Below the pieces are notes generated by a model. The model ran no database searches and had not been told where the DNA came from. It saw only the letters and a list, made by a program, of their open reading frames with translations. DNA of 64,000 bases from a phage: NCBI GenBank assembly GCA_025812035.1, contig GCA_025812035.1_4719.1, one strand, 5' to 3'. Positions within the stretch are counted from its first letter, which is position 1, and each line of letters opens with the position of its first letter. This document shows positions 9,010 to 56,140 of the stretch, in pieces. The position numbers were made by a program, and so were the translations under genes.

Positions 9010-9330
9010 TCATTTTCTCCCTCTTCGAATACCACCGATACCTCTTCGATCCAAGACGTCCCATGCACGTTTTATTTCATCCTCCGTTGCTCTGGTATCT
9101 GGAGGGACAACCATAACACAATCGTGGAATGGCCAGTGCGTCGGTCTAGGGTCAGCAAATAGATTATCCCATTCAAGCGTCCATGATTGCTTTGAACGAT
9201 TATAGTAGATCGTAAGGTACGTATTAGTGTACGCTGGGTAACCACGCATAACTTCAACATCTTTACGATCCTGCCGTTCCTGATTCCAATCGTTAAATCG
9301 TTTTCTTATTTTATCCCATCGCTTTCCCAT
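9010..9330 (-). CDS. hypothetical protein
   Basis: Start trimmed to ATG 9330 with AGGAGA RBS; 106 aa. Confidence 0.45.
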   Translation of the reverse strand: MGKRWDKIRKRFNDWNQERQDRKDVEVMRGYPAYTNTYLTIYYNRSKQSWTLEWDNLFADPRPTHWPFHDCVMVVPPDTRATEDEIKRAWDVLDRRGIGGIRRGRK

Positions 9331-9383: not shown

Positions 9384-9584
9384 TTAACGACCATCCAATT
9401 TCAACGAAGGATGGTTGACGATATGTGCGTGTTTTGCTGGGTCGTATGGCAGATATGGAAAATAACCATGCCATTCACGACCTTGGCATTTCGTACACAC
9501 GAACTGACCACCGCTCCGTTGATTCTCGTAAGCGAGTTCAGTACTATCAACATGACCGCAACGTTCGCAGATAAACAGCGACAT
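9384..9584 (-). CDS. small zinc-ribbon protein
   Basis: 66 aa with two CxxC pairs (CERC, CTKC). Confidence 0.4.
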   Translation of the reverse strand: MSLFICERCGHVDSTELAYENQRSGGQFVCTKCQGREWHGYFPYLPYDPAKHAHIVNHPSLKLDGR

Positions 9585-9621: not shown

Positions 9622-10602
9622 TTAGAATAGCAAGAAACCGCTGTTCTTCGCTTCCGCTACAGTTTCGTCACCAACTTTCGGTGCCTGTTGACGCGCGTTA
9701 CGATGTTCAATGTAACGTTTCGCTTCGTCAGCGATTTGTTTGATAATACCCCCTAAACGATCGGTACTTAAAACAAACGACGTCGCTTCACGGATTGGGC
9801 TGCTGTCAGGCACAAAACCGTCACAACTGTAAATAGCGTTAACACCCATGACTTTTGTCGCGTCTTTCGGATAAAGCGTACAGAAAGCAATGGGGCTATC
9901 GTTCTCTTTTGTCCAATCGTATCCCATGAACGTATTCAGTTCGGTGATCGTTGGTTCCAAACCGGTAACACGTGGATGGTTCAAGAAGTTTTCCAGGTCA
10001 GCGCTGTCAAGACGACGGTTCTCACCAGAAAACAGAACACAAAGCTGGCTAATAACAACCTGCACGTCCAGGTTGACATCCTGCTCCGATTTCCCATTTT
10101 CGCCATTCATGTGATAGCTGACGATCACCGGACGTTTCAACCCTTCTGCGGCTGCCATCAGTCCTTTAAAGGTGCGGTCTGCGTTGATCGTCTGACGCTC
10201 ATCATCGAACGAGGCAACGATGCAACATACCACACGTTCACCGCGTTCCAGCAGGTTAGCAACCAACGCAGGACCTGCAACAGAACCCGAACCACCGCTT
10301 AAACTAAAGACCACGATATTAAATTTACCTGGCGTATGTTTGTTGAGAATACCTGGGATTTGTGAACAGATCAGTTCAGCGTTCTCGTCACGCTTCTTAC
10401 CCGAACCGTCTAACTCGCGGCCTGCTGCATCTTTAAAGATGTAAATATGATCATCGTCCAGTGTGCTATCGCGTAGGTTAGCACGGCTGGTATCGACATA
10501 CGTCATGCTGTGTAATCCTTTCGCGACTTCGCCTTCAAACGCTGAGCCGATTTCGCCACCACAACCGCCGACAGCCCAAATATGTACTTGGTTCTCTTGC
10601 AT
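9622..10602 (-). CDS. phuZ: phage tubulin-like GTPase (PhuZ/TubZ family)
   Basis: 326 aa; N-terminal G-box VGGCGGEIG; tubulin/FtsZ signature SGGSGSVAGP; AGGAG RBS. Confidence 0.75.
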   Translation of the reverse strand: MQENQVHIWAVGGCGGEIGSAFEGEVAKGLHSMTYVDTSRANLRDSTLDDDHIYIFKDAAGRELDGSGKKRDENAELICSQIPGILNKHTPGKFNIVVFSLSGGSGSVAGPALVANLLERGERVVCCIVASFDDERQTINADRTFKGLMAAAEGLKRPVIVSYHMNGENGKSEQDVNLDVQVVISQLCVLFSGENRRLDSADLENFLNHPRVTGLEPTITELNTFMGYDWTKENDSPIAFCTLYPKDATKVMGVNAIYSCDGFVPDSSPIREATSFVLSTDRLGGIIKQIADEAKRYIEHRNARQQAPKVGDETVAEAKNSGFLLF

Positions 10603-10666
10603 GTGAACTCCTAACTTAGTATGTATTTAACGCACAATGAATCTTTCTTTACTAAAGGGGTGACCC

Positions 10667-11509
10667 ATGGGTGCTATTGACTACAGTGTAGATCGTATCT
10701 GTCGTACAATACCGGCAGATATCCTACAGTATTGCTATATCGATCGTTACGACTGGCGTAACCGATATCCACGTTCCGTCGAAGACATCATTACCGATTG
10801 GGTAATTCGTAAACGGGTTATCGGCGACATTGATATCTACGGGGGACTACAAACCGTTGTTCCCCTTGATGATGCAGGTGTTACTATCGAAGAAGTCACC
10901 ATTAACTGTTATGTTTTCCATATTCCATTGGAAGCCACACAGGGACGTTATATCACGTCCGCATTATCCATTATTTCAGGGAGTGTGAACAACTACGGTA
11001 TAAACTATAACGGTCAATGGGGCGCTTTCAACCAAACCCAGTTCCAACGACAGCTTTGCGGATGGAACCCTGCAAGCAACACATTACAGCAAGGGATGAA
11101 CGCATTCGGTCCCATGAACGTTCTTAGTACAGCGAACGTTGATATCATCGCTCCTAACACCATCATGGTGAACAACGTCACGCCTGTGCAGTTTCCACTG
11201 AGTCTACGTTGTTTCCTTGCCCACGATCCGGAACTCACCAACCTCAGCATGGAGGTTTGGAACGACTTCTACAAACTCTGTTTATATGCCACACAAAGTG
11301 ACATTTACAACAGAACCGTTATCCGTCTTGATAGAGGTGTTACCGCACAAGGACAAGAAGTCGGTGCATTCAAGGAATACATCGACCGCTTTGCTGACGC
11401 TGAAAACACGTATCAAGAATTCCTGAACGAAACGTGGGCAGGTGTTGCCGCATGGAACGATCCACAAACTAAACGTCGCGCTATTCGTTTGCAAACCGGT
11501 TACTTCTGA
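10667..11509 (+). CDS. hypothetical protein
   Basis: 280-aa ORF, AAAGGGGTGA RBS, followed by hairpin. Confidence 0.55.
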   Translation: MGAIDYSVDRICRTIPADILQYCYIDRYDWRNRYPRSVEDIITDWVIRKRVIGDIDIYGGLQTVVPLDDAGVTIEEVTINCYVFHIPLEATQGRYITSALSIISGSVNNYGINYNGQWGAFNQTQFQRQLCGWNPASNTLQQGMNAFGPMNVLSTANVDIIAPNTIMVNNVTPVQFPLSLRCFLAHDPELTNLSMEVWNDFYKLCLYATQSDIYNRTVIRLDRGVTAQGQEVGAFKEYIDRFADAENTYQEFLNETWAGVAAWNDPQTKRRAIRLQTGYF

Positions 11510-12036
11510 TTAGCTACCGCTTCCTCCCTCGGTGTTTTCGAGGGAGGTATTTGCCGTTTGAATACTTTCAGCATGTTCGCAAATTTAGCCGCGATGACAC
11601 AGGCCGAAGCCGATAGTTTATTGCTGAAGATAAGATCGTCCGGCAAACAATCGAAATGAATACCGTATTCGGTCTTTGTCTCTTCAACAATCAACGACAA
11701 CGCTGGTCTTGTCTTCTTAATGTCGGTGGTATACAAACGTAAGAACGTTTCACCGTCTTCGCTATCCGTTAAACGATAAGCGTTTCCAGAAAACTCAACG
11801 TGTGGTGTAACGATATATTGAACACGATCGTCGGCAGGATGGATATTTAACCAACGTGTCATATCGCTGCTACTCACATTTTGCATATTTACTACGGTAA
11901 AAGCAAATAGCGTATCGTTTTGTTTGGAATAATGCAACACATATGCCGCATCTTTCTTTCCGTGAATCCCTTCAATATACTCTATTAACGTATAGCCTGA
12001 TTTATATAGCTTTACTTGCGGTTTCTCGTTCATCAT
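11500..12036 (-). CDS. hypothetical protein
   Basis: Start trimmed to ATG 12036 (GGGAAGGG RBS; ATGA overlap with upstream stop); 3' end overlaps hairpin 11523-11547. Confidence 0.45.
   Translation of the reverse strand: MMNEKPQVKLYKSGYTLIEYIEGIHGKKDAAYVLHYSKQNDTLFAFTVVNMQNVSSSDMTRWLNIHPADDRVQYIVTPHVEFSGNAYRLTDSEDGETFLRLYTTDIKKTRPALSLIVEETKTEYGIHFDCLPDDLIFSNKLSASACVIAAKFANMLKVFKRQIPPSKTPREEAVANQK
11523..11547. terminator. hairpin CCTCCCTCG-GTGTTTT-CGAGGGAGG
   Basis: 9-bp stem 14 nt after stop of 10667-11509; overlaps 3' end of convergent ORF. Confidence 0.4.
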
Positions 12037-35978: not shown

Positions 35979-38900
35979 TTATTTAGCGTCGTTAAAATAA
36001 ATATCAACAGCTCGTTCCGTTGCGTAGAGGAGACCAAGGTTCACAGTCCCAACCACTTCCGGCGAAGCGATGATACGGTTAGCGATACTGGTGCCACTGA
36101 AGATAGCATCAAGGGTGTGCCCGTCTTCGGTTTTGTTCACACCATGACCCACGGAAGAGACAACGGATTTCGCTTGTGCTGCGAAGGTACCCTTATCACC
36201 CATCCCCGCACCAAGGTCGTAACGCATGAAAATACGGATGGCGATCTGGTTCTCGCCTAACGGATTACCGTCTATTCTCACGTTACTGTTGTTGATACGC
36301 CCCGTCGTTGCTTCATTGAGTTTCAGTTCCTTGACGCGTTTAGCTCGCGCTTTATCCGCATCGCCGACGAGCGCCGCCATGGTTTCACTCATATCCTCAA
36401 TCTGAGCGCGGTACAGCACATCGATCTGTACAACTTCACCATGAACGTCAGCACGTGGGTTATACTGACTCATACGACGTAATGCTTCAACAGCTTCCTG
36501 ACTCTCATCACTCAGATCGGTTGCGATCGGTTCTTCCAGTGTTGCAAGAATCGTTCGAGGTTCAACATGATCGCCGATTTTTACGAGACCACGAATGTTG
36601 AGATGGGCGTCAACAATGAGCGTACGGCTCTTAATCGATGGTGTTACGAGACGATCGGCAAGATTGTCGAAGATATACGAACTGTCCTCGTGCGTCTCTG
36701 GAATATCCAGAATACCGACAAGAGACAGGACGCCTGCGCGCCAAACAACCTGACCTGGGTTCCACCAATCGCGTTTAAAATAAAGACGATGGAAAACCAC
36801 CACGTCCTGATCCTTAACGCGATCCCCAACTTTATAATCGGTAATGAGGTCGTGAGGATAATACTTACCTGGTCCTTTCCCGATTATCGTACCGAGTTGG
36901 AAAACCTCTTCTCCTAACTCTGGATCGTCGTATTGTACCGTAAGCGCAGTTTTGGTGACCTTCTTAACAACACCATCGCCTTGGGCAGCTGCGGCGAAGA
37001 GTTTACCGACACGATGCGCGATAACAGTCTCGCCACCCGTACGCCATGGTTGTACATCGTAACCTTCAGCAGCAATCATGCGGTTGTGTTGGATCCCGAC
37101 GAAGACCAGACGTTTTCCATCGTCACGGTCTACAGCCGGAACAGCTAACGCCGATGTACTCATTACCGATGAGATGCCGTCTGTCTTTTCATCGAATGGT
37201 CGTGTTTCACCATATACAGACACGATATTAGCATTAGGTGCCAGATAGGCAGAAATACCTACATCCCCGCTATCCTTCGTACCTTCTGATACAATACCGA
37301 CATCTGACTTATCGTATTCACGATCGCGTGCGCGGCGAAGCGATGTCTTTGAGCGACCCCCGATACCGGTCATCGTTGCTTCTTCACCCTGCTTGATATC
37401 CAGCATCGGGTTGGTTTCATCGATCACGATGGACGCGCTGTCGTCGAGAATTTGGTTCCAGACACTCACTGGACTGATTGAGATTTTCTGTCGGTTTCCT
37501 TGACTGCTGTTCTCGTTTTGACGAATAGCACCAACCAGGTCCTTATACACCAGCTCAGCGAACTTATCGTACGTTTTAAAACGTTGGTAGTTCACATCGT
37601 TCGTGTTAGGTGCCCAATCATCCAGAAGCAGTTCAACAGCACGCAGCAACAACATGGCGAAATCGGTAGGTTCTCCCATGTTCTGTAATAGCGTACGGCT
37701 TACCGGATCGACGAAAAGACGCTCCATGAGTTCAAGTTCGCGTAAATGGCGAACCTTAAGTCCAGCACCATCGACAACGTTAAAATAGATATCTCGATTG
37801 TCAAAAGCACCGCGAGCGTAACCGATGTAGTTACGGTATTCGTTAAACCCACCCATCAACAACGTCGTCATGCGATCGTCTTTACTGAAGATCAAACTTT
37901 CGTCGTCGAAGCTCACCGCGAACTCGTCTGATGCTAAACCCATACGAGAGCCACGAGGAACAGTACGATAATTCGCTTTAAGATGTTCTAATAACGGGGT
38001 AAGCCCACCCAGATAACTTAGAACAACGCCAACCGGAATACGTACGCCCATGAATTCAAGATCGGCAGCTTCGATTGGCATCTTAGCCGCATTGATGCCG
38101 AAGAAATCAGGGAACGTCCCTACAGGTGTTGGTGTTTGTCCTGACTGACAGATATAGAGCTGGTTGCGTTCATCGATCGCTAAGAATTCGCCCGACGTAT
38201 TACGCGCGAACGTCAGGAGTCCTTCGGCTAACTGTTCGTTGAACCGATCTTCCCCAATGAACTCCGGTAACGTTTTTATATCGAGACGTATATCCCAATC
38301 AGCGAATTGGATTTGGGTATAATTGCGCGCAAGCACGGCGAAGTAATACGGGACTTTGACAGCCGGATCAAAGACGTTACCACGTTTTAACGTTGTTAAG
38401 GGCGAGGACTTATCGTAATACATCGCCGTAAGTTGACGTGTTAGCCAACGACCAGCGTTATTAACGACGCGCTCTGAACGTTTAACGAACACCTTACCGT
38501 AGGCGGTACTCAACGCAACTTCGGATGACGATACCTTTCTAATAGGTTTATCAACGCGCTGTTTACGCATCCGGTACTTGATACCGTTAACAACATAAAT
38601 GCCATCCTTACGAACCTTCGGCAACATCACCGGGAACGTGGTTGGGACACCGCCTACAGGAGCCAGTTTAATCGTGATGACTTGATAATCCCCCATCACG
38701 TCAACAACATCTTCAACTTTATATCCCGTAACAGGGTAACCTGCTTGCTGTACCGCAACAACGGCAGCTGCGATGTCCTTTTGCATTACATGTTCAACGT
38801 AATGTTTATCCCACACCGCGAGCGTTGATTTACATAAGCTCTTATCAACGATAACATCCGCTTCCGGCATAACCTTTGCGGGAGCTAGTTTCGCGGCTTT

Positions 38901-40325
38901 TGGTTTAACTTCAACATATTCAGCGAGCGTTAATCCAGAACCGTCAGGTGCTTCGATTTCGTGGATGGCGTCAGCATTACGCATCGCTGCTTTATATTGG
39001 ACGCCACTTAACTGACCTGCATCCGCCAGATCGCTCGCACGCACCAACACCGCATCCGATAACGACTGAATATACTCACCATGTGTTTTTGGTAACGTTG
39101 CTGCGTCAAAGACATCAACCTTTTCTTCGGCGGTATCGTCGGGGACGACTTCGAAGAGATCGTCGGTAATGTCCTGATCTTCATCAGGTTGGAAATCCGG
39201 TTGTACTTCTACCCCAGGTACTTCACGAACATCTTCAAACGTGCGCTCTACGATTGCGTTCCACGCATCAGCATCATCGTCTTCATCCGACCCACCGACC
39301 AACTCCGCTTCTAACTCATCGGGGTCAAGAACAGTGGCCAGATCCTCACCGTTAGGAAGCACGACATCGCGATCATCGTACTCCGCATCCGGGCTGTCCG
39401 CAAGAATATCTCGCTCTTGACGAAGAACCTGTTCCTCTTCTTGTTTCTGTTCTTCTTCATTCGCGCTCTGCGACCACAGACGTGTTACCGCCATCATCCA
39501 ACGACGCTGGAAGGTTTCAAGTGTCGTTTTATCGAGTTCTTCCCCTTCCTTTACGAGCCCGGTACGCCATTCCTCCAGCAGACCGAGATTCAGCGTAAAG
39601 AAGTACACACCGTCTGTAAATACAACGTTAAGCTTATCCAGCGTGGCTCTGTCTAACGAAGCCATCGTGCTGTTCTCACGATCGGTTCCCAACCAGCGGA
39701 AGAAGTCAAAGAACGACAGCTCCTCCGGTGTGGCGAAATTCATGAGGTTGTTACGGGTCGGTGCCTGTTGCGTGGTACGCATCAACGAAATCTTCGGCAA
39801 TGTTGACGGTATACGGAACAACAAAAAGTGTTGACGATCGCTTTGCTGGGCGATTTCGTTGGCTTTCGACCAAATTGTTTTACGTACGTTGAACCACTCA
39901 TCGTACCAACGGGTGAGCGTTGGACGATAGATGTACATGTGGTTAAGATGCGCGTAGTTAGCAACGATCTGCGCGTTGATGTTTTTCTCCACCGTGCTTA
40001 GATCGGTAACCAAACGAAAACGACGATGTGATGCACGATAATCCAATTTCGCTCGTGGAAGTTGGAATCGTTGATCGCGTCGAGGTGCGCCCTGTTTGGT
40101 TGCGAGATCATCAGCAAACGAAATCCATAGTTGAGCATTTTCTTTACTCAGCATGTATTCGTTTTCTGGAGGACCTATCAATGATGGATCCGTTGCGGTG
40201 TAATGATAGACAGCATAACGCGGCAGCTGCAATAGCTGCACTAAACGTAATCTCGGTGACAATAGCTCTTGGTATCGTCTGACGCCAAACTGTCGGTAGT
40301 AATCAAGGTATTTAAGTTTTGCCAT
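35979..40325 (-). CDS. multisubunit RNA polymerase beta-like subunit
   Basis: 1448 aa; GIGGRSKTSLRRARDRE...VGIVSEGTKDSGDVGIS resembles RpoB GPGGLTRERAGFEVRD...ETPEGPNIGL; GDKGTF...EDGHTLD resembles RpoB GDKMAGRHGNKG region. Confidence 0.6.
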   Translation of the reverse strand: MAKLKYLDYYRQFGVRRYQELLSPRLRLVQLLQLPRYAVYHYTATDPSLIGPPENEYMLSKENAQLWISFADDLATKQGAPRRDQRFQLPRAKLDYRASHRRFRLVTDLSTVEKNINAQIVANYAHLNHMYIYRPTLTRWYDEWFNVRKTIWSKANEIAQQSDRQHFLLFRIPSTLPKISLMRTTQQAPTRNNLMNFATPEELSFFDFFRWLGTDRENSTMASLDRATLDKLNVVFTDGVYFFTLNLGLLEEWRTGLVKEGEELDKTTLETFQRRWMMAVTRLWSQSANEEEQKQEEEQVLRQERDILADSPDAEYDDRDVVLPNGEDLATVLDPDELEAELVGGSDEDDDADAWNAIVERTFEDVREVPGVEVQPDFQPDEDQDITDDLFEVVPDDTAEEKVDVFDAATLPKTHGEYIQSLSDAVLVRASDLADAGQLSGVQYKAAMRNADAIHEIEAPDGSGLTLAEYVEVKPKAAKLAPAKVMPEADVIVDKSLCKSTLAVWDKHYVEHVMQKDIAAAVVAVQQAGYPVTGYKVEDVVDVMGDYQVITIKLAPVGGVPTTFPVMLPKVRKDGIYVVNGIKYRMRKQRVDKPIRKVSSSEVALSTAYGKVFVKRSERVVNNAGRWLTRQLTAMYYDKSSPLTTLKRGNVFDPAVKVPYYFAVLARNYTQIQFADWDIRLDIKTLPEFIGEDRFNEQLAEGLLTFARNTSGEFLAIDERNQLYICQSGQTPTPVGTFPDFFGINAAKMPIEAADLEFMGVRIPVGVVLSYLGGLTPLLEHLKANYRTVPRGSRMGLASDEFAVSFDDESLIFSKDDRMTTLLMGGFNEYRNYIGYARGAFDNRDIYFNVVDGAGLKVRHLRELELMERLFVDPVSRTLLQNMGEPTDFAMLLLRAVELLLDDWAPNTNDVNYQRFKTYDKFAELVYKDLVGAIRQNENSSQGNRQKISISPVSVWNQILDDSASIVIDETNPMLDIKQGEEATMTGIGGRSKTSLRRARDREYDKSDVGIVSEGTKDSGDVGISAYLAPNANIVSVYGETRPFDEKTDGISSVMSTSALAVPAVDRDDGKRLVFVGIQHNRMIAAEGYDVQPWRTGGETVIAHRVGKLFAAAAQGDGVVKKVTKTALTVQYDDPELGEEVFQLGTIIGKGPGKYYPHDLITDYKVGDRVKDQDVVVFHRLYFKRDWWNPGQVVWRAGVLSLVGILDIPETHEDSSYIFDNLADRLVTPSIKSRTLIVDAHLNIRGLVKIGDHVEPRTILATLEEPIATDLSDESQEAVEALRRMSQYNPRADVHGEVVQIDVLYRAQIEDMSETMAALVGDADKARAKRVKELKLNEATTGRINNSNVRIDGNPLGENQIAIRIFMRYDLGAGMGDKGTFAAQAKSVVSSVGHGVNKTEDGHTLDAIFSGTSIANRIIASPEVVGTVNLGLLYATERAVDIYFNDAK

Positions 40326-40328
40326 GGG

Positions 40329-41975
40329 TTAGGCTCCACGAGGTCCCGTTAAGTTGCGTAATAGGAACGCAACCGTATCGTAACCAATATCGATGTTGAA
40401 TTTATTTTTACCACTTACCCAGAAAGCACGTTTCTTGTGCGAGTTGGTAATTTCGTCAATGGCTTCCATGGAATAAAGAACGTTAACCGAGACCGTATCG
40501 CCATCAAAGTCCCCACCAAGTCCGGCGAGGTACGGGGCTGGAACAATAGTCGTTTCTACGAACGAAGCATTAGGTAACCAATCTGGGTATTCCCATGCGA
40601 TAAATCGCTCATCCGTTATTGGTTCCCAGTTACTATCCAGTTCGGTTTTCGGTTTTGCTGCAACGGTCGTACGCGCATAACAGGTTAACGGAATGACGGA
40701 TTGCATACCCGATACCGGATAACGTGTTACCATCGCTGCCAGGTTATTCCAGTATTTATATCCAGCAATATAGATAAGCTCAGTATACGTAATGGGGTGA
40801 ACATCCGCCCCGGGTTTGTTAAGCATCTCTGGGGGTAATTCACTCATACCACGGAATAACCGAAACGAATCATTATTCACATAGACCAGGCAGAGATAAC
40901 GTCCATTGACCATGATAGGTTCGTTACGCACACCTGGATCGCTTAAGGTGTTCAGTAAACGTTCTATCCCATCCCATGTTGTAAAGTCATCGATGGTGTC
41001 TGGATCAAGCGTGACGCGTTCACGTTCCATCGTTTCGGTATCAATAAGTTCAACTTCTGTAACATCACGGACAAATATTTCCTGCAAAATCCCCGTACGT
41101 AACGCATGTTGCGTTACTGGGAGAGCAGCTTTACTCATCTGGTATAACCCTAACTGAACTGCAGTACAGGAAGGCTGGTTAGGCGACCCTAGTACCTCCG
41201 TTGTGGGGTTAATTGCTGAAATAACGTTACGGGTTGAGTTCCAAACACGACGTGAGCCGAACTTACCTTGGAAGATCCCTTTCTTACCTTGGAACATATC
41301 CAACAACAAAGCGTAGATGTCGTTAAATGTTCTCTGTAAGCTCCAGCGCTGACCGTCGTAAACGGGATCCGAATAATCTTTTAATCCATCCGGGACGGTG
41401 TTAGAAATTGCCAGGAAACGACGATACAACTCTGTGATTTCTTGCTCGCTTTCATACCCGCCTTCTTTTACTTCTATTTCACGTAAACCCGCAGGTAAAA
41501 CCAGTAGATGACGAGTCATCGCTTTGAACATGTTCTCTTCGACAACCTTGATTCGTAGCTCTCGTTGAGCTGAACCCGTTGAAACGAACTTGATATCAGC
41601 GACGTGTTGTGCAAAGAACCCGTATCCTGTTTGTCCTGTTAGCGCATCGGACGCAACGAAGTCACGTTGTTCAGGATCCCAACGCGCGTACGCCTTCCCC
41701 GACATGATATCACCGTAGAGGTGTTTTAGTCGAATGAGACGATCGTAGATGACAGGGTGTAGGATTTCAACTTTGCATTCAATCACCGCAAATCGACGGT
41801 CTCGATCTTCGCTACCCGCACTACCAAAGATGGTGTATGAATAGAAACCGTCATCGTGGAAATTACCGGTGCTTGGATCACGAATGCTCATGCTCGTGAT
41901 CTTGGGGAGAAAACGTAACTGCTGTTTATCGAGGTGTAAAATGCTAATATTAAACGGCTCTCTGACTTTAGCCAT
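40329..41975 (-). CDS. multisubunit RNA polymerase beta-prime-like N-terminal subunit
   Basis: Start trimmed to ATG 41975 (AAAGAGGAG RBS); RRFAVIECKVEILHPVIY resembles beta-prime RMGHIELAAPVAHIWF; GKFGSRRV...NVISAIN resembles [27 protein letters not shown] catalytic motif near C-terminus. Confidence 0.65.
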   Translation of the reverse strand: MAKVREPFNISILHLDKQQLRFLPKITSMSIRDPSTGNFHDDGFYSYTIFGSAGSEDRDRRFAVIECKVEILHPVIYDRLIRLKHLYGDIMSGKAYARWDPEQRDFVASDALTGQTGYGFFAQHVADIKFVSTGSAQRELRIKVVEENMFKAMTRHLLVLPAGLREIEVKEGGYESEQEITELYRRFLAISNTVPDGLKDYSDPVYDGQRWSLQRTFNDIYALLLDMFQGKKGIFQGKFGSRRVWNSTRNVISAINPTTEVLGSPNQPSCTAVQLGLYQMSKAALPVTQHALRTGILQEIFVRDVTEVELIDTETMERERVTLDPDTIDDFTTWDGIERLLNTLSDPGVRNEPIMVNGRYLCLVYVNNDSFRLFRGMSELPPEMLNKPGADVHPITYTELIYIAGYKYWNNLAAMVTRYPVSGMQSVIPLTCYARTTVAAKPKTELDSNWEPITDERFIAWEYPDWLPNASFVETTIVPAPYLAGLGGDFDGDTVSVNVLYSMEAIDEITNSHKKRAFWVSGKNKFNIDIGYDTVAFLLRNLTGPRGA

Positions 41976-42217
41976 GGAGACACTCCTCTTTACCACCACC
42001 GGCGGCGGTATCATCTGAACACACGAGAGACGTAATGGGTGATGGCGTCACCCATCGCTTCCTTGCTTGAGGCGAGGAAGTTATTAGGTTACGTACCTGT
42101 TTGATAAAATCAAACAGGCGATGTGTGAAGTTACGCTTCAACATTATCAATGCCGAAGGTAAACTTCGTGCATCACGTTCCAACGTAACATGGGAACGTA
42201 TCGAACTGGAGGTATAC

Positions 42218-45200
42218 ATGGTAGATAAAACCCGTGTTGAGGGTGATGATAATTGGGACAACTGGGATGAAGACTTCTCCCTGGATCTCGATTTTAACGA
42301 GCCTAAAGACGATCGTAAACCAATAACACGCTTTGCGATAGGAGCGGTTAAAGGTGCTGCTGAGGATCTTACTTCCTACGAAAGAATGAAGGAGATCGCC
42401 AGAAACGCATTGCCTAAGGGCTATAGCGACGGTATGGATCTTATCGATTCCGCCGTCGGATCCACGAAGGAACTATACAATGAAGCCGTTCGTGATGTTC
42501 TTCCTAAGGTCCAAAGCTCAAAACGGTTAGCAGCACAACTAACCAAGAAATATCGTGCAAGCATGCCCGATTTCTCGAAGAAAATTATCGAGCGTTGGGA
42601 GCAAGAAGCCAAAGAAGAAGACGAACGTAAACAGGCTGAAGCAGAACTCAAGCAACGCATGGCGAACGCGGGAGATGATGAAATCGCCCGTAAGGTTGCC
42701 GAAGCGTTAGGCGAGTCAGCAAACCAAAGCGCGGATCAGTTTGCCGAACAGCAAGCAAAAGAAAGTATCCGTGACGATATTGCCGACAAACGGTACGCTG
42801 TAACCAACAAACAAATGAGTGCGATGCAAGAAGGCGTCGCCAAGATGGTTGGTTTCAACAACGAATTCGCTGCACGCTACATGCGTAAAAGCCTGGAACT
42901 GAAATATCGTTCCTTAGCGATTCAACGTGCAAGTTTTGATCAGCATAAAAAGTTAGCCGAAGTCTATATCGGTTTATTACAAAACATCCAGAAGAACACG
43001 GCTTTACCTGATGCAGCTAAAGCGAAAATGTCGGAAGAATTCCGTCGTAGTGCATACCAACGTTTCTTTGGTAATGCGTTAGATGCGATGAGTTCTTTCG
43101 AGAGCCGTTTCTTTGCCGATGTTAAGAAAAACCTTGCCACCAACGCATTAGGTGCTTTAAAAGGCGTCGTGTCTGGAGCAAACGATGCGTTATACGGTTT
43201 AAACGAAGCGCGTGACTCGATGTCCATGATGGATGGGATGGGGTCAGAAGGCGATATTAAGGAAATGCAAGGAAAGATGTTGGGTCAGTTTATTGGCTCA
43301 ACTGTTGCACCATGGATGGCTAATAAAGGCATGATGGCATTACGCGATTTAGCAAAACGTCATCCCAATGCTAAATTCGCAAGTGCGTTAAAAGCCGTGG
43401 ATCAAGGTGGTGAGGCCGCCGCCTACACAACGCGTAATATCGGTAAACTGCTCCAGGAAGATATTCGTAAAAACGAATTCAATCTTAACGATCCGTTTTA
43501 CAAGCAGTTGTTACGTGGTGCAGGGCGTTGGGCGTTCAACATGGACAGTGGACGTAACTTCCGTGTGATGAACGACACCGCTGAAACACTGGCGGAGCAA
43601 ACGTCATTCGATGGTTTGACTTACCGCAGCATCAATGAGGTTATTCCTGGTTTTCTTGCTCGCATTCTGAAAAGCAGTGAAGGCATCCGCACGGGAAACA
43701 GTGATCCCGACTACGAGGTCTATGACGGCATCAGCGGGCAATTCGTGGCTCAGCGCACGCGCGAACAAAGCGTCAACGACACACTGTTTAACAAACGTTC
43801 GTTTGGTTATTACGCGAGTCGTTTCAATGAGGTCATCTCGGTCATCGATCCCGATAAACAGTTATCGGAAAAAGCCAGGAAGGCATTGGCTAAACAGCTG
43901 GCACGAGACAGTGACGCAAACATCGCATTCGACCCAGCTCGTTTTACGGATGAAAGTAACTTCGATCGCAGTATCGACCGTGACGCTATTAAGGAACTTT
44001 CCACGTACTTCCGTGACCGTTACGGTATTCGCGATCATGTCGATGATAAGGGCGAACGTCAGCAAGTCATTGAAAACCGCGGGCAATATTACACGGAACG
44101 TAACCGAGCGGATCTTCGTTACGGTAATCTGAAATCCTTACAGCCGGATATCCAGCGTAACCTTAACCTACTGAAACGTACTGGCGACGTCCAATATCTG
44201 GAACGTATCGGTATCGTAACAAGAAATAGTGACGGTAGCTACTCGGTTAACCACGATCGGTATTTCTCTGAAATCGATCAATACATCGATCGACCAGAGT
44301 ACGCTGACCGCGGCGATGTCAGTACGCGATTAACCGATCAGGAAACAAGAGCGCTGGCGCTGGGTTATCGTGACGCAAAACCATCAACTGGCGACGTCCA
44401 AAATTCTGGTCTGCCGAACATCGATCGTAAGGCTGCTGGAACAGTAACCGTTGATGAAAACATCGGTTACGATAAATGGTGGAATGACGCAGGTGTTATC
44501 ACCACATCGCTTGAAGAACAGAATCGAGCATGGCAAGAGCTTTATCTCGAAGCGCTGTCTGAAGCATCCGAACAACGTGTTGAGATGCTTGCGTTACTGA
44601 AAGCCATTTCTGAGAAAGACTGGTCTAATAACGTTTCGCTGGATGGCGAAGACGTACCTGAAGGTACAGCACCCATTTCGTTTATCGATCGCGCTAAACA
44701 AAAACTCGGTACACACAACCTCTTTAAACGTGGTCGTAATCTCCTCTGGAAAGGAATTAAAAATACCGCACGGTTGGGTGTTAAAGGTGCGCGTTGGGGT
44801 GCAGAACGCACGTTGGGTAGTTTGGTAAATTCTGGCCGACGTATTATCAACTTCAACCGCTTCGTGTTCGGCGCATTATCCAAGGTTGATCAGGTTCCAT
44901 TCGACATTTACGTTAAAGGGGAATCCCAACCGCGTATATTGGCAGCCAAGCTTCGTCAGGGGTTATACTTCGACGAAGCTACGGGAAAAGCCGTAAAACG
45001 GATGAAGGATATCAAAGGCCCACTCGTTGATGCAGATGGAAACATCGTAATCAGCAACGAGGATATCGAGAAAGGGCTGGTCACTCGCGCCGGTCGTGCT
45101 TTTGAGAATTCGGGACTTAAAGCGTGGGCGCGTGAAGGCCTTAATGGGATAACAACGGTATTAAGTCTACCACGGATGTTAAAACGCGGTGCGGTTGAGA

Positions 45201-48200
45201 TCTATAAACAGCTTGACAAGACGCCCGACGTTTACGTCAAAGGAGAATCAACACCTCGCCTACTGTCCATGGTGTTAGCGGCGGGCGGGTATTTCCGTCG
45301 CTCTGATGGACAAGTCATCAAAAATCTTGAAGACATTGACGGTGACGTTGTTGATGCGCAAGGTAACGTTGTACTTACGCTTGCCGACATGCAGAAAGGG
45401 CTTGTCGATAAAAACGGTAAAGCGATTCGTCGCTTAAAAGAAAAGCTTATCAACTTCGGTGTGAAAGCTTTCACGTTACCGTTAACCCTGCTACGTAAAA
45501 CAAAGGACATCCTTAAAACCCTTCCCAGTAAAACGGTTAATGGTTTACGACGGATGGGATTAAACTTCCAATCACCTGATGCATTATTGGTAGGAACAAC
45601 GTCGGGTATGGTAGATCGCCTCGATGCTATTTACCAGCTTCTTGACCAGCGTATGCCGGGTGGTGACAGGGATTATCGCGATTGGAATGGTGACGGTGTT
45701 CGAGAAGGATCGTTGGAAGACCTGAAACGTAAACGTGAAGCCAAGGAAAACGGTAAGGATAACGCAGGCAAAGATTCTGGTAAAGGAGAAGAAAAGGAGA
45801 AGAAACGAGGATTACTCGGAAGCCTTTTCGATATGCTCGGCGATACCGCGTTAGGTAAACGACTCATGGCGAGTCCGCTTGGAAAAATCCTAGGTGGTCT
45901 TGGGGCGGTGTTAAGTGGTGGTGCATCACTAACCGGGTTGTTAGGTAAGGGACTTGTTAGAGGAACCGGTGCGCTGGTTAGAGGAGGACTCAGTGCGGCG
46001 GGATGGTTAGGACGTGGTGCGCTGATGGCTGGTGGGGCCGCACTTAATGCTGTTGGTGGTATGGCTGGACTAGGCGCGTTCCTCATCTCACCTGTTGGGC
46101 TTGCTATTGCTGGCGGTGCGTTGGCTGCTTATGCTGGATGGAAAATCTATCAGCATTTCGCTGAGAAGCCTGACCCAATGCAGAAGCTCCGTCTTATTGC
46201 ATACGGTGCAAAAGGGGACGATAAAGACTTCAATAAGAAGTTGCTTGCGACAGAAACATACCTCACCGATCACGTGGTCATGACCGGGGACACCATCGGA
46301 TTCGATCCAAAAGCCGATTCTGAAAAGATTCTCGAAATCTGGGAATTGTCTCTGGAAGATTCCGATCGAATGAACGAATGGAAACGTTGGTATCTGCATC
46401 GTTTTATTCCTGTTTTCGCTCGTGCGTACAAACTCTGGAAAGAGCATATGCCGGACGAGAAGAAATACATGGAAATGGACAAATATCCAAACGGTGAGAA
46501 CAAAGTGAAATGGTCGGAAGCATTCATCTGGCCTTCCGATAGTCCTGACGGTCCGTATTACGTTGAGGCGAATCCGTTGGGTTCTTCCGGCGCGACGCTT
46601 TATATTGCCGGTCAAGACGTCAAAACCTTGATGCTGAAACAACTCGAAGCCATCAAGAAAGAGTACCAGAATCAGATTAAACAATACTCTCATGATGAGG
46701 CTATTGCTGATTGGTCACGGATGTCTGACACACAGCGTAAATCCGTCGCACCTAATGCGTTGCGAGGCCAGAAAGCGTCATTACGTTTTAACGATAAACG
46801 TTACAACAGTGCTGGTGCTAAAGGACGACAGAAACTGGATGCAACCGCGGTTATCGAAAGCGTAGACCGTCGTGGTAGAAAATGGGTTGCCGGTGGGTAC
46901 ATCGATGAACTCACCAGTCTCCGTGTTCGTGCGTACGGTATTAAGGTTCCGTTGCTAAGCCAGATAAAAGTGCTGATGGAACTCGAAGACGCTGTAGAAC
47001 CGGGCGTTGTCGCTGAAGGTAAAGGCGTTAAATACGGCGGTGATCTTGTCGCTCTCTACAAGAAATTCGCGACGAAGTTCGGAAGAGACGTTAACGGTAA
47101 ACAGGATCAGGATATCTGGTTTGCTTGGATGAACAACCGTTTCCTGCCCGTCTTTTTAACCTATTACCAACAAGTTAGCGAAATGGGTGGTCAAGGTCTT
47201 CTGTCCGATGTGGTACAGAACCTGAAAGACAGCCAACGTTGGGAAATCGGTGAAGCGCTTGTCGCGACGCAATACCGCGATAAAAAGGGTGCGCTACAAC
47301 CCGTGTGGTCGTGGAATAGCTGCGGTTTCTCCGGTACCGAAGCCAACACCACCAGCAGTTCAACAAAGAGCCAGCTCGATCTGTTAAAAGAATACGCGGA
47401 TAAAGAGAAGGTTCGTGAGAAGAACGCGGAAGCATCGCAAGAGGATACCGATAAATTATCGAAGATCCAAGAGCTGATGATGAAGCAGGCTGGGTACGAG
47501 AAGAAAGACGGTGTCTGGCAGAAGAAATCTCGCATTACCGGCGGAATGAGTAATTCCGAAGCGAATTACAACCCCAATGGGAATAAAGTCGGTGCAAGCA
47601 GCTTTACCGCCTCGGCTACTTCCGGTGCGGGATTGGGATCAACCGGCGATCTTACTGGGTTGCCGAACATGGGCTTACAGAAACCTGCAACGGGACCAGG
47701 TCCTGAAGCTGGACGACGTACGCTTGTTAAATCCGCTGTGAAACACGGCATCACCGATCCAATGGAAATGGCCATGTTCCTTGCGAACATCGAACATGAA
47801 TCGGGGAACTACACTCACGTACGTGAGGGGAACTATAAGACGCCCGAGCGTCTTAAACAGGTCTTCCCTTACAAATTCCGTGACGTGCAGGATGCCGCAC
47901 AGACGATTAGCATGGGGCCAGAAGCGGTATTCGAACGTGTGTATGGTAATCGTAAAGATCTAGGGAACACACAGAAAGGGGACGGAGCGAAGTATTTAGG
48001 ACGTGGCTTCATTCAGGTTACCGGTAAAGCTAACTACGCTCGTCTGTCCAAGACCTTGAATAAGGATCTTGTCAGCGATCCGTCTTACCTGGAAACGCCG
48101 GAAGGTGCAGCGGAAGGTAGTGTTGCGTGGTGGCTCAACCGAGGTAACGTACTACGTGATCCCGCAAAACGGGGTGATGTACGCAAAGTTCGTTATCTGG

Positions 48201-48883
48201 TTAACGGCGGCTATAACGGATTACGTGATGTCGAACAACGTTCTGCCTATTGGATTCAGGCGGCTAAGAATGGCACCCTGAAGAAAATGATGGACGAGTT
48301 ATCGGGATCAACATCGGGCGATCAAACTGAAGGACCAACTACCGCCGAACAGGTGAAGAACGAAGCAGCGCAGGAGGCAAACGGAACACCTGCGACAAGC
48401 AACGATCCGCAAGCTCCAGCGCCTTCTACCACCCCTGAAGCTAAACCGGCTGCGGCTGCCGGGACGGCTCCAGCACCCGGAGAAACGTCACCGACACCTG
48501 GAAGTTTCGAAACAGCAAAAGCCGCAGCAGGACAACCGGCATCAACCCCAGCACCGAGCGATTTACCGTCAAACCCCGGCGCAAATCGAGGGATATCGGT
48601 TCCGAGCACACCTACACAGGTTGCGCAGTCAGCGTCACAAACATCGGCTGCAAGCGAGAACTTCTACGGTAGCGCAGGCGAAATTCTCCGACAACAGCTG
48701 ACCACACAGCAGAACATCGAGAAGAACACTGGTAGAACGAATGAACTTATTTCGGAACTGATCCAGGCCGTTAAGGGTTCTTCTATCGGTAAGGGTTCTG
48801 CAAGTCCTTCTCAACAACAGACGATGCCGCTACCTAATCGTCCGCAAGGAATCTCTCCGACACGGACAAGGTACGCACAGTAG
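42218..48883 (+). CDS. giant virion-associated protein with C-terminal GH19 peptidoglycan-hydrolase domain (phiKZ gp181-like)
   Basis: ~2221 aa from ATG 42218 (GGAGG RBS); GH19-like block FLANIEHESGNY...YLGRGFIQVTGKANY (~47720-48290); Gly-rich hydrophobic segment; tandem ~105-aa repeat; Pro/Ala/Thr-rich tail. Confidence 0.7.
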   Translation: MVDKTRVEGDDNWDNWDEDFSLDLDFNEPKDDRKPITRFAIGAVKGAAEDLTSYERMKEIARNALPKGYSDGMDLIDSAVGSTKELYNEAVRDVLPKVQSSKRLAAQLTKKYRASMPDFSKKIIERWEQEAKEEDERKQAEAELKQRMANAGDDEIARKVAEALGESANQSADQFAEQQAKESIRDDIADKRYAVTNKQMSAMQEGVAKMVGFNNEFAARYMRKSLELKYRSLAIQRASFDQHKKLAEVYIGLLQNIQKNTALPDAAKAKMSEEFRRSAYQRFFGNALDAMSSFESRFFADVKKNLATNALGALKGVVSGANDALYGLNEARDSMSMMDGMGSEGDIKEMQGKMLGQFIGSTVAPWMANKGMMALRDLAKRHPNAKFASALKAVDQGGEAAAYTTRNIGKLLQEDIRKNEFNLNDPFYKQLLRGAGRWAFNMDSGRNFRVMNDTAETLAEQTSFDGLTYRSINEVIPGFLARILKSSEGIRTGNSDPDYEVYDGISGQFVAQRTREQSVNDTLFNKRSFGYYASRFNEVISVIDPDKQLSEKARKALAKQLARDSDANIAFDPARFTDESNFDRSIDRDAIKELSTYFRDRYGIRDHVDDKGERQQVIENRGQYYTERNRADLRYGNLKSLQPDIQRNLNLLKRTGDVQYLERIGIVTRNSDGSYSVNHDRYFSEIDQYIDRPEYADRGDVSTRLTDQETRALALGYRDAKPSTGDVQNSGLPNIDRKAAGTVTVDENIGYDKWWNDAGVITTSLEEQNRAWQELYLEALSEASEQRVEMLALLKAISEKDWSNNVSLDGEDVPEGTAPISFIDRAKQKLGTHNLFKRGRNLLWKGIKNTARLGVKGARWGAERTLGSLVNSGRRIINFNRFVFGALSKVDQVPFDIYVKGESQPRILAAKLRQGLYFDEATGKAVKRMKDIKGPLVDADGNIVISNEDIEKGLVTRAGRAFENSGLKAWAREGLNGITTVLSLPRMLKRGAVEIYKQLDKTPDVYVKGESTPRLLSMVLAAGGYFRRSDGQVIKNLEDIDGDVVDAQGNVVLTLADMQKGLVDKNGKAIRRLKEKLINFGVKAFTLPLTLLRKTKDILKTLPSKTVNGLRRMGLNFQSPDALLVGTTSGMVDRLDAIYQLLDQRMPGGDRDYRDWNGDGVREGSLEDLKRKREAKENGKDNAGKDSGKGEEKEKKRGLLGSLFDMLGDTALGKRLMASPLGKILGGLGAVLSGGASLTGLLGKGLVRGTGALVRGGLSAAGWLGRGALMAGGAALNAVGGMAGLGAFLISPVGLAIAGGALAAYAGWKIYQHFAEKPDPMQKLRLIAYGAKGDDKDFNKKLLATETYLTDHVVMTGDTIGFDPKADSEKILEIWELSLEDSDRMNEWKRWYLHRFIPVFARAYKLWKEHMPDEKKYMEMDKYPNGENKVKWSEAFIWPSDSPDGPYYVEANPLGSSGATLYIAGQDVKTLMLKQLEAIKKEYQNQIKQYSHDEAIADWSRMSDTQRKSVAPNALRGQKASLRFNDKRYNSAGAKGRQKLDATAVIESVDRRGRKWVAGGYIDELTSLRVRAYGIKVPLLSQIKVLMELEDAVEPGVVAEGKGVKYGGDLVALYKKFATKFGRDVNGKQDQDIWFAWMNNRFLPVFLTYYQQVSEMGGQGLLSDVVQNLKDSQRWEIGEALVATQYRDKKGALQPVWSWNSCGFSGTEANTTSSSTKSQLDLLKEYADKEKVREKNAEASQEDTDKLSKIQELMMKQAGYEKKDGVWQKKSRITGGMSNSEANYNPNGNKVGASSFTASATSGAGLGSTGDLTGLPNMGLQKPATGPGPEAGRRTLVKSAVKHGITDPMEMAMFLANIEHESGNYTHVREGNYKTPERLKQVFPYKFRDVQDAAQTISMGPEAVFERVYGNRKDLGNTQKGDGAKYLGRGFIQVTGKANYARLSKTLNKDLVSDPSYLETPEGAAEGSVAWWLNRGNVLRDPAKRGDVRKVRYLVNGGYNGLRDVEQRSAYWIQAAKNGTLKKMMDELSGSTSGDQTEGPTTAEQVKNEAAQEANGTPATSNDPQAPAPSTTPEAKPAAAAGTAPAPGETSPTPGSFETAKAAAGQPASTPAPSDLPSNPGANRGISVPSTPTQVAQSASQTSAASENFYGSAGEILRQQLTTQQNIEKNTGRTNELISELIQAVKGSSIGKGSASPSQQQTMPLPNRPQGISPTRTRYAQ
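44897..45540 (+). repeat. tandem duplication of a ~105-109-aa module inside the giant virion protein gene
   Basis: PFDIYVKGESQPRILAAKL... vs PDVYVKGESTPRLLSMVLA..., matching periodic D/G/K positions; diverged at nucleotide level. Confidence 0.5.
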
Positions 48884-55465: not shown

Positions 55466-56140
55466 TTAGCCCTCATCGAGGTTGTTCTGGAGATGCATCG
55501 CGGTGAGAATAACGCCAACAGCGGAAACCGATTTTGCTTTACTGTCTTCAGGGAGCTGTTCCAAGCTTACAGTACCTGTTTCTAGCAACATGCGGTTCAT
55601 TGCGTTGAACTTCTTATCATCACCACCACGAGCCTGCATCAACTCTCGGTTCACGTTCGGCATCGAGCGTCCTAACGTCGCTTGCATCTCCGGTTGACTC
55701 CAAGTAGAACCTTTACTATCACCAGTCGGCTGATTGGTGAGCTGGTCCTTGGTGTTGTTGTTTTTCGGAATCGATATTTTAGCGCTCAACGTTTCGGCTT
55801 GCCGACGATTTGGAATCAGGTACAATCTGGTTGGACGATCACGAAGCACCAATTGTCCTGTTTTCTGATCGGTGAGATAAATGCGTTGGAAGAAAGGGAA
55901 ACCGTATTTCTTACCGACTTCCAACGCACGTTTTATCGTCACCTCGTTTTTGTTCATATTGGGTACCCAGATGGGTAGAATCTCTTTCTTATCCCGACAT
56001 AAACGCATATAAGCATCAAACGTCTCATCATCGATTTCAGCGAAACGTTTTTTGTAAATAGCGTATGTCGGGCTCGATTCTCCCACCAGGTCTTTGATGT
56101 ACCCGAGAATGAATTTTTCTGCTGCAGCGCGGTTGGACAT
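55466..56140 (-). CDS. hypothetical protein
   Basis: 224-aa ORF. Confidence 0.5.
   Translation of the reverse strand: MSNRAAAEKFILGYIKDLVGESSPTYAIYKKRFAEIDDETFDAYMRLCRDKKEILPIWVPNMNKNEVTIKRALEVGKKYGFPFFQRIYLTDQKTGQLVLRDRPTRLYLIPNRRQAETLSAKISIPKNNNTKDQLTNQPTGDSKGSTWSQPEMQATLGRSMPNVNRELMQARGGDDKKFNAMNRMLLETGTVSLEQLPEDSKAKSVSAVGVILTAMHLQNNLDEG

What the first reader, a model, noticed from the sequence alone, without database searches (positions are those of the whole stretch)
9622..10602. Phage tubulin (PhuZ-like) gene marks this as a likely nucleus-forming jumbo phage
The 326-aa product has both tubulin/FtsZ GTP-binding signatures in correct order (N-terminal glycine box VGGCGGEIG, T4-loop-like SGGSGSVAGP). 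PhuZ-type tubulins in phiKZ-like phages build the spindle that positions the phage nucleus. The split RNAP and gp181-like giant protein in the same window support that lineage.
Basis: partly seen in the sequence, partly recalled or inferred. Interest (0 to 1): 0.8.

Follow-up and report, generated by a model that had tools for sequence, protein, structure and literature searches.

The report
Known PhuZ tubulin, Goslar-like phage
The gene is a real phage tubulin (PhuZ) in a nucleus-forming jumbo phage, but it is 98.8% identical to the PhuZ of E. coli phage Goslar, whose filaments, mutant phenotype and structure are already published, so the finding is correct and ordinary.

Summary
It has a Shine-Dalgarno sequence and both glycine-rich tubulin loops in the right order.

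The interpretation also holds:
- It matches the PHROG family 'tubulin PhuZ' over its full length (E 2.4e-68).
- It matches the solved PhuZ structures of phiKZ and 201phi2-1 by sequence.
- A confident AlphaFold model (pLDDT 86) superposes on them at TM about 0.8.

The protein is not new. It is identical at 322 of 326 residues to PhuZ of Escherichia phage vB_EcoM_Goslar. That protein has a cryo-EM structure (PDB 9pm9) and published cell biology. The whole 64-kb window is collinear with Goslar at 93-95% nucleotide identity. It includes a truncated chimallin (nuclear-shell) gene at 1-1665, which is the real hallmark of nucleus formation. The exact protein sequence is already public, labelled 'hypothetical protein [Escherichia coli]'.

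One correction concerns mechanism. In Goslar, PhuZ builds a vortex that rotates the phage nucleus. It does not build a bipolar spindle that centres it.

Novelty: already known. Interest is low.

Side note: the window carries an intron-less RNA polymerase gene at the site where Goslar has a group I intron with an HNH homing endonuclease.

The parts
9622..10602 (-). PhuZ (phage tubulin) coding sequence, 326 aa plus stop
   Evidence: ORF. phrog_4733 'tubulin PhuZ' E 2.4e-68. 98.8% aa identity to Goslar PhuZ YP_009820885.1. PDB 9pm9 E 2.5e-218.
10608..10612 (-). Shine-Dalgarno AGGAG, 5 nt upstream of the ATG
   Evidence: Read directly from the sequence.
10546..10572 (-). Codons for residues 11-19, VGGCGGEIG: T1 nucleotide-binding loop
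   Evidence: G12, G13, G15 nearly invariant. Lies inside the Pfam Tubulin match to residues 9-151.
10270..10299 (-). Codons for residues 102-111, SGGSGSVAGP: T4 / tubulin signature loop
   Evidence: G103, G104 and V108 invariant; S105, G106, S107 and P111 nearly invariant.
9997..10008 (-). Codons for residues 199-202, DSAD: T7-loop aspartates D199 and D202, the putative GTP-hydrolysis site
   Evidence: Both invariant in 24 relatives. D202 retained. D202A is the published hydrolysis-defective mutant of Goslar PhuZ (PMC9891218).
9625..9762 (-). Codons for residues 281-326: long C-terminal helix (H11, 281-305), short helix 312-321 and flexible tail ...NSGFLLF
   Evidence: AF2 secondary structure, with pLDDT falling to below 50 at residues 323-326. 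G322 nearly invariant. The H11 helix plus tail is the PhuZ-specific polymerisation element (PMC7950403).
1..1665 (-). Chimallin (ChmA, phage nuclear shell protein). Codes for the N-terminal 555 of 631 residues; the 3' end of the gene lies beyond the window's start.
   Evidence: phrog_4795 'nuclear shell protein' E 5e-43. 96.8% identical to Goslar gp246 'nuclear shell protein'.
35979..40325 (-). Context: split multisubunit RNA polymerase piece, 1448 aa
   Evidence: phrog_3148 'RNA polymerase beta subunit' E 0. 99.3% identical to Goslar gp207.
40329..42014 (-). Context: split RNAP piece carrying the DFDGD catalytic motif, uninterrupted here. The likely true start is the MAKVRE methionine 13 codons into the listed ORF.
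   Evidence: phrog_2986 E 2.2e-179. 547 of 548 residues identical to Goslar gp205 plus its second exon once the 2044-nt intron is removed.
55466..56140 (-). Context: small split RNAP piece, 224 aa
   Evidence: phrog_3233 E 1.1e-65. 100% identical to Goslar gp196.
42125..48883 (+).
   Evidence: phrog_3201 'tail fiber protein' E 1.1e-293 and an endolysin-like domain at residues 1872-2117. 97.1% identical to Goslar gp204.

Best explanation
The gene encodes the PhuZ tubulin of a Goslar-like (genus Goslarvirus, family Chimalliviridae) nucleus-forming jumbo phage of enterobacteria.

Inferred mechanism, taken from the 98.8%-identical Goslar protein and from PhuZ structural work: GTP binds the N-terminal domain at the T1 and T4 loops. 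Monomers polymerise head to tail, with the C-terminal H11 helix and tail of one subunit gripping the next. The T7-loop aspartates D199 and D202 of one subunit complete the GTPase site of its neighbour, so hydrolysis makes the filaments dynamic.

In infected cells the filaments form a vortex-like array around the chimallin-shelled phage nucleus. By growing against the cell envelope they rotate the nucleus, which is thought to spread capsids over its surface for DNA packaging. They do not centre the nucleus at midcell.

Shown here: sequence, motifs, fold, orthology, selection and genomic context. Inferred from the literature on the orthologue: polymerisation, vortex and rotation.
For: - Family match: full-length match to phrog_4733 'tubulin PhuZ', E 2.4e-68.
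- Solved structures by sequence: Goslar PhuZ 9pm9 E 2.5e-218, phiKZ PhuZ 3zbp E 2.2e-29, 201phi2-1 PhuZ 3r4v E 2.9e-15.
- Orthology and selection: 322/326 residues identical to Goslar PhuZ, with 42 synonymous against 4 nonsynonymous codon changes.
- Catalytic and nucleotide-binding residues are invariant in relatives.
- Fold: AF2 model pLDDT 86, pTM 0.86. Foldseek gives TM 0.91 to 9pm9 'PhuZ Tubulin from phage Goslar', 0.82 to 3zbq and 0.80 to 3r4v. TubZ, CetZ and FtsZ score 0.5-0.7.
- Context: the window is collinear with Goslar at 93-95% nt identity. All 58 Goslar genes in the stretch have counterparts, including chimallin.
- Experimental basis for the mechanism: GFP-PhuZ vortex, and D202A abolishing vortex and rotation but not positioning (PMC9891218). 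The C-terminal tail is required for polymerisation (PMC7950403).
Against: - The Pfam Tubulin match (30.5 bits) is just below Pfam's gathering cut-off of 33.
- The protein does not match Pfam PF22334 (phage tubulin C-terminal domain), although 19 of 24 relatives do.
- Both points apply equally to the experimentally validated Goslar protein, so they show divergence of this clade rather than non-membership.
- No experiment has been done on this exact variant. Four substitutions relative to Goslar (G49D, E229D, S255N, E266D) could in principle change filament behaviour, though three are conservative and D49 is also present in the cluster representative.
Confidence: 0.95

Rival explanations
1. It is a PhuZ that builds a bipolar spindle and centres the phage nucleus at midcell, as in the Pseudomonas phages 201phi2-1, phiKZ and PhiPA3.
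For: Same family and fold as those proteins. Centring is documented for 201phi2-1, phiKZ, PhiPA3 and RAY (PMC10299810).
Against: Identity to those proteins is only 23-27%. The 98.8%-identical Goslar protein forms a vortex. The Goslar nucleus is not positioned at midcell, and D202A does not change its position (PMC9891218).
Confidence: 0.05
2. It is a TubZ-type partition tubulin that segregates a plasmid-like or prophage genome with a TubR adaptor and a centromere, as in Clostridium phage c-st or Bacillus pBtoxis.
For: TubZ structures are significant fold matches: 3v3t at TM 0.64 and 2xkb at TM 0.58. A weak trace of Pfam Tubulin_2 was seen at E 9.4.
Against: PhuZ structures match far better, at TM 0.80-0.91. 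The neighbours are DUF7484 and small unknown genes; Pfam finds only DUF7484 in the divergent neighbour and no family is on record for the flanking gene products in four ~7-kb loci that carry the identical PhuZ protein, though no TubR model was searched for specifically. The genome is a lytic chimallivirus carrying chimallin and virion genes.
Confidence: 0.01
3. It is a decaying or functionless remnant, because PhuZ is dispensable and has been lost from a third of the family.
For: PhuZ is accessory and absent from about one third of Chimalliviridae (PMC10299810). Erwinia phage Asesino forms a nucleus without it (title and abstract of PMC11724907).
Against: The ORF is intact with a Shine-Dalgarno sequence. 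Synonymous changes outnumber nonsynonymous ones 42 to 4. All catalytic and nucleotide-binding residues are kept. Its 98.8% identity to Goslar is above the window median of 97.8%. The identical protein was seen on 47 contigs.
Confidence: 0.01

Closest known systems
PhuZ of Escherichia phage vB_EcoM_Goslar (gp201 in Birkholz et al. 2022; YP_009820885.1; PDB 9pm9/9pmk)
   Same: Same length, with 322 of 326 residues identical. Same genomic position and neighbours. All functional motifs match, including D202. The predicted fold superposes on the cryo-EM monomer at TM 0.91.
   Different: Four substitutions (G49D, E229D, S255N, E266D) and 46 nucleotide differences. The host phage is a distinct Goslar-like variant at 93-95% nt identity.
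PhuZ/TubZ of Pseudomonas phage phiKZ (gp39; PDB 3zbp/3zbq)
   Same: Same family, with the same tubulin GTPase domain, T7 aspartates and C-terminal helix and tail. TM 0.82, sequence E 2.2e-29.
   Different: About 27% identity. phiKZ PhuZ forms a bipolar spindle that centres the nucleus, whereas the Goslar-type protein forms a vortex and does not centre it.
PhuZ of Pseudomonas phage 201phi2-1 (gp59; PDB 3r4v, 3j5v)
   Same: The founding member of the family. TM 0.80. The T7 motif aligns: 'RLDVHDVANW' against 'RLDSADLENF'.
   Different: About 23-27% identity. The sequence match starts only at residue 65. Forms a three-stranded filament and a centring spindle.
TubZ (Clostridium phage c-st, Bacillus plasmids), CetZ and FtsZ
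   Same: Tubulin/FtsZ superfamily fold and GTP-binding loops.
   Different: TM 0.5-0.7 and 11-16% identity. They act in a different biological setting: plasmid partition, archaeal cell shape and cell division.

Membership tests
Tubulin/FtsZ superfamily | Match to the Tubulin/FtsZ GTPase-domain profile (Pfam PF00091) above its curated threshold | tested here: inconclusive
   E 5.6e-07 and 30.5 bits over residues 9-151, against a gathering cut-off of 33 bits. All 24 relatives match the family at E<=0.01.
Tubulin/FtsZ superfamily | Glycine-rich T1 loop and T4 signature loop (GGGTG[ST]G-like) in the N-terminal domain, in that order | tested here: met
   VGGCGGEIG at residues 11-19 and SGGSGSVAGP at 102-111. 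G103 and G104 are invariant.
Tubulin/FtsZ superfamily | T7-loop acidic residues that activate GTP hydrolysis in the neighbouring subunit | tested here: met
   D199 and D202 are invariant in 24 sequences. D202 is the residue mutated in Goslar PhuZ(D202A).
Tubulin/FtsZ superfamily | Two-domain tubulin fold | tested here: met
   AF2 pLDDT 86. 1103 PDB matches at E<=0.001; all 50 listed are PhuZ, TubZ, CetZ or FtsZ.
PhuZ (phage tubulin of Chimalliviridae) | Full-length similarity to the PhuZ family profile and to structurally solved PhuZ proteins | tested here: met
   phrog_4733 E 2.4e-68, residues 1-323 against profile positions 1-321 of 323. 3zbp E 2.2e-29 and 3r4v E 2.9e-15.
PhuZ (phage tubulin of Chimalliviridae) | Long C-terminal helix H11 plus an extended tail that mediates longitudinal contacts | tested here: met
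   The model has a helix at 281-305, a helix at 312-321 and a low-confidence tail at 323-326. It aligns over 309 columns with the phiKZ protofilament subunit. G322 is nearly invariant. The feature is described in PMC7950403.
PhuZ (phage tubulin of Chimalliviridae) | Match to Pfam PF22334 (TubZ_C_2, phage tubulin-like protein C-terminal domain) | tested here: not met
   No hit even at E<=10, although 19 of 24 relatives hit. The experimentally validated Goslar PhuZ is 98.8% identical, so this profile is not a necessary feature; the Goslar clade has a divergent C-terminal domain.
PhuZ (phage tubulin of Chimalliviridae) | Encoded by a chimallin-encoding jumbo phage genome | tested here: met
   Chimallin fragment at 1-1665. 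Collinear with Goslar, taxonomy Goslarvirus. Contigs carrying the identical protein are 238-243 kb.
PhuZ (phage tubulin of Chimalliviridae) | GTP-dependent assembly of dynamic filaments in infected cells | not testable with these tools
   Shown for the 98.8%-identical Goslar protein by GFP imaging and the D202A mutant (PMC9891218).

The most novel reading that the evidence does not exclude
The head-to-head PhuZ-DUF7484 gene pair is conserved down to 32% PhuZ identity. It might reflect a functional partnership, for example a virion-associated DUF7484 protein that couples capsids or the nuclear shell to PhuZ filaments, rather than simple core-genome synteny. My evidence leans against this, because DUF7484 is more widespread than PhuZ, but does not exclude it.
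Probability: 0.05. Interest if true: 0.45.

Novelty: already known. Interest (0 to 1): 0.1.

Why it matters
As a discovery it matters little. Goslar PhuZ already has published live-cell imaging, a hydrolysis-defective mutant and a cryo-EM structure, and this protein differs from it by four residues.

The practical value is in annotation. The identical sequence sits in public databases as 'hypothetical protein [Escherichia coli]', and cluster relatives are filed under Shigella and Salmonella. One likely reason is that Pfam's Tubulin model scores just under its threshold. Recognising these records as PhuZ of Goslar-like chimalliviruses flags roughly 240-kb nucleus-forming phage genomes hidden in bacterial assemblies and metagenomes. 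It also provides natural sequence variants of a structurally solved phage tubulin.

Tried and rejected
- Primary paper for PDB 9pm9/9pmk: a text search for '9PM9' found only a benchmarking preprint. The Avs5 anti-jumbo-phage paper that mentions PhuZ turned out to be unrelated to this entry.
- The original PhuZ structure paper (Kraemer 2012, PMC3401054) is not held. I used a review (PMC7950403) for the C-terminal tail instead.
- A search of complete E. coli RefSeq genomes with the gene found nothing. The phage appears in draft assemblies and metagenomes instead.
- The sigma-70 promoter and terminator scan around the gene gave no more sites than shuffled sequence. This was expected, since chimalliviruses use their own RNA polymerases.
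- My first attempts to splice out the Goslar intron in silico failed. The first removed one base too many. The second, with the boundary corrected to 2044 nt, still compared the two proteins out of register. A global alignment then gave 547 of 548 identical residues.
- I considered a TubZ-type partition system and a decaying-gene reading and rejected both (see the rival explanations).
- I considered DUF7484 as a PhuZ-specific partner and judged it unlikely, because DUF7484 occurs in more phage records than PhuZ (248 against 174).

Full report
**Observation.** Window 9622-10602 holds an ATG-to-stop ORF of 326 aa on the minus strand. The plus-strand frame is full of stops. An AGGAG Shine-Dalgarno sequence lies at 10608-10612, 5 nt upstream of the ATG.

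**What it is.**
- PHROGs gives a full-length match to phrog_4733 'tubulin PhuZ': E 2.4e-68, residues 1-323 against profile positions 1-321 of 323.
- Pfam gives the Tubulin/FtsZ GTPase domain at E 5.6e-07. The score of 30.5 bits is just under the curated cut-off of 33.
- Against PDB sequences the best hit is 9pm9 (E 2.5e-218). Next come phiKZ PhuZ/TubZ 3zbp (E 2.2e-29) and 201phi2-1 PhuZ 3r4v/3j5v (E about 3e-15).
- Foldseek names 9pm9 as 'PhuZ Tubulin from phage Goslar (locally refined monomer)', released 2025-12-24.

**Identity of the genome.** Megablast of the gene finds only Escherichia phage vB_EcoM_Goslar, at 95.3% nt identity. The RefSeq record annotates the gene as 'tubulin PhuZ'. The whole 64-kb window is collinear with Goslar record positions about 171,234-237,291 at 93-95% identity, with a single 2-kb gap. 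All 58 Goslar CDS in that stretch have counterparts in the window. The median amino-acid identity is 97.8%, and PhuZ is at 98.8%.

**Residue-level comparison.**
- The window protein differs from Goslar PhuZ at four positions: G49D, E229D, S255N and E266D.
- Of 46 differing codons, 42 are synonymous. Of 46 nucleotide differences, 44 are at third codon positions. This indicates strong purifying selection.
- In an alignment with 23 database relatives (24-97% identity), several residues are invariant. They include the T4 glycines G103 and G104, and the T7-loop aspartates D199 and D202. G12, G13 and G15 of the T1 loop are nearly invariant.

**Fold.** AlphaFold2 with that alignment gives mean pLDDT 86 and pTM 0.86. 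The model has a long C-terminal helix (281-305), a short helix (312-321) and a low-confidence terminal tail. Foldseek against the PDB gives the following:
- 9pm9: TM 0.91
- phiKZ protofilament subunit 3zbq: TM 0.82
- 201phi2-1 PhuZ 3r4v: TM 0.80
- c-st TubZ, CetZ and FtsZ: TM 0.5-0.7

Neither is met.

**Is it a nucleus-forming phage?** Yes, but the best evidence is not PhuZ. PhuZ is an accessory gene absent from about one third of Chimalliviridae (PMC10299810). At least one nucleus-forming phage lacks it, according to the title and abstract of PMC11724907. The hallmark is chimallin. Window 1-1665 (minus strand) encodes the N-terminal 555 residues of a protein that matches phrog_4795 'nuclear shell protein' (E 5e-43). 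It is 96.8% identical to Goslar's nuclear shell protein, and the gene is cut by the window edge.

- Split RNAP pieces at 35979-40325, 40329-42014 and 55466-56140.
- A 2252-aa tail protein at 42125-48883 with an endolysin-like domain.
- A phiKZ-type DNA polymerase, a terminase and a tail sheath.

**Mechanism.** What follows is inferred from the literature on the orthologue and the family, not tested here. PhuZ monomers bind GTP and polymerise. The C-terminal H11 helix and tail of one subunit bind the next subunit, and removing or mutating the tail abolishes assembly (PMC7950403).

[quoted passage not shown] The D202A mutant polymerises at much lower expression levels, which suggests a hydrolysis defect, and it acts as a dominant negative. 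With D202A the vortex disappears and rotating nuclei fall from 97% to 29%. Nucleus position and growth are unchanged, and the Goslar nucleus is not placed at midcell (PMC9891218).

For this protein the most likely role is to drive nucleus rotation, and possibly capsid delivery.

**Rivals.** I considered three and rate each unlikely:
- A centring bipolar spindle. This is contradicted by the Goslar data.
- A TubZ-type partition tubulin. The fold match is worse, no family beyond DUF7484 was found in the flanking genes, and the context is a lytic chimallivirus.
- A decaying accessory gene. This is contradicted by the 42:4 ratio of synonymous to nonsynonymous changes and by the intact motifs.

**Novelty.** The finding is already known. 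The exact 326-aa sequence is in public databases (EKA1377604.1, HDC4419191.1, DAH94036.1), named 'hypothetical protein [Escherichia coli]', and was seen on 47 contigs of up to 242,781 bp. Its 90% cluster has 111 members, includes Goslar's PhuZ, and has members attributed to Shigella and Salmonella assemblies. Contigs of 125-240 kb in ENA metagenome assemblies carry the identical protein; three of the four shown are about 240 kb. In the 7 kb around the gene they differ from the window by about 1.3%. The sub-threshold Pfam score probably explains the 'hypothetical' labels.

**Seen in passing.**
1. Goslar has a 2044-nt insertion (record 211,754-213,797) that the window lacks.
   - It contains an Rfam-confirmed group I intron (67.7 bits; no intron anywhere in the window).
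   - It also contains gp206, a 490-aa HNH_3/NUMOD1 endonuclease.
   - It splits the RNAP gene exactly between GGD and FDGD of the catalytic DFDGD motif. Removing it in silico restores a protein 547 of 548 residues identical to the window's uninterrupted ORF.
   - The window phage therefore carries the intron-less allele, which is presumably the homing target. The precedent is PhiPA3 gp210, an intron-encoded HNH endonuclease in an RNAP gene that nicks the phiKZ homologue and gives a competitive advantage (PMC11620839).
2. The DUF7484 gene at 10667-11509 is divergently paired with PhuZ here, and in relatives whose PhuZ is only 56% and 32% identical. DUF7484 is in more phage records than PhuZ (248 against 174), and a few records call it a virion structural protein. 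Core-genome synteny is the simpler reading.
3. The genes most diverged from Goslar (84-90% aa identity) are small unknowns, and several flank PhuZ.

Noticed in passing
window 40329-42014 (-), junction near 40508-40510; Goslar L003 8754-10797 (record 211,754-213,797): The window has an uninterrupted RNAP gene carrying the DFDGD catalytic motif. At this site Goslar has a 2044-nt group I intron (Rfam RF00028, 67.7 bits) with an HNH_3/NUMOD1 homing endonuclease (gp206), inserted between GGD and FDGD. Goslar with the intron removed in silico is 547 of 548 residues identical to the window protein. The window phage is therefore the intron-less allele and the probable homing target, analogous to the PhiPA3 gp210 / phiKZ gp178 pair (PMC11620839).
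   Followed up: yes
window 10667-11509 (+); L008 3119-3961; L009 3096-3944: A DUF7484 gene (PF24302, E 2.9e-87; phrog_3179, unknown function) is transcribed divergently from PhuZ across a 64-bp spacer. The pairing is kept in relatives whose PhuZ is only 56% and 32% identical. DUF7484 occurs in 248 phage records against 174 for PhuZ, and a few records call it a virion structural protein, so it is more likely a core gene than a PhuZ partner.
   Followed up: partly
window 13535-14572, 11503-12036, 9390-9584, 14878-15228, 61376-61924, 9049-9330 (all -): These small genes of unknown function are the most diverged from Goslar, at 83.8-90.4% aa identity against a median of 97.8%. Several lie immediately beside the well-conserved PhuZ and DUF7484 genes, which suggests fast-evolving accessory genes.
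   Followed up: no
window 9622-10602 (-); loci L004-L007: The identical PhuZ protein is deposited as 'hypothetical protein [Escherichia coli]', and cluster relatives are filed under Shigella and Salmonella. It occurs on 125-243 kb contigs in isolate assemblies and metagenomes, many of them close to the 237-kb length of the Goslar genome. Goslar-like phage genomes therefore sit unrecognised in bacterial sequence records. The sub-threshold Pfam Tubulin score (30.5 against 33 bits) probably contributes.
   Followed up: partly
window 42125-48883 (+): The giant 2252-aa tail protein (phrog_3201, E 1.1e-293) has an endolysin/chitinase-like domain at residues about 1872-2117. It has no Pfam hit at E<=0.001. 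The mechanically listed ORF starts 8 codons upstream, at a TTG at 42101.
   Followed up: partly
window 1-1665 (-): A chimallin (nuclear shell) gene is cut off by the start of the window.
   Followed up: yes
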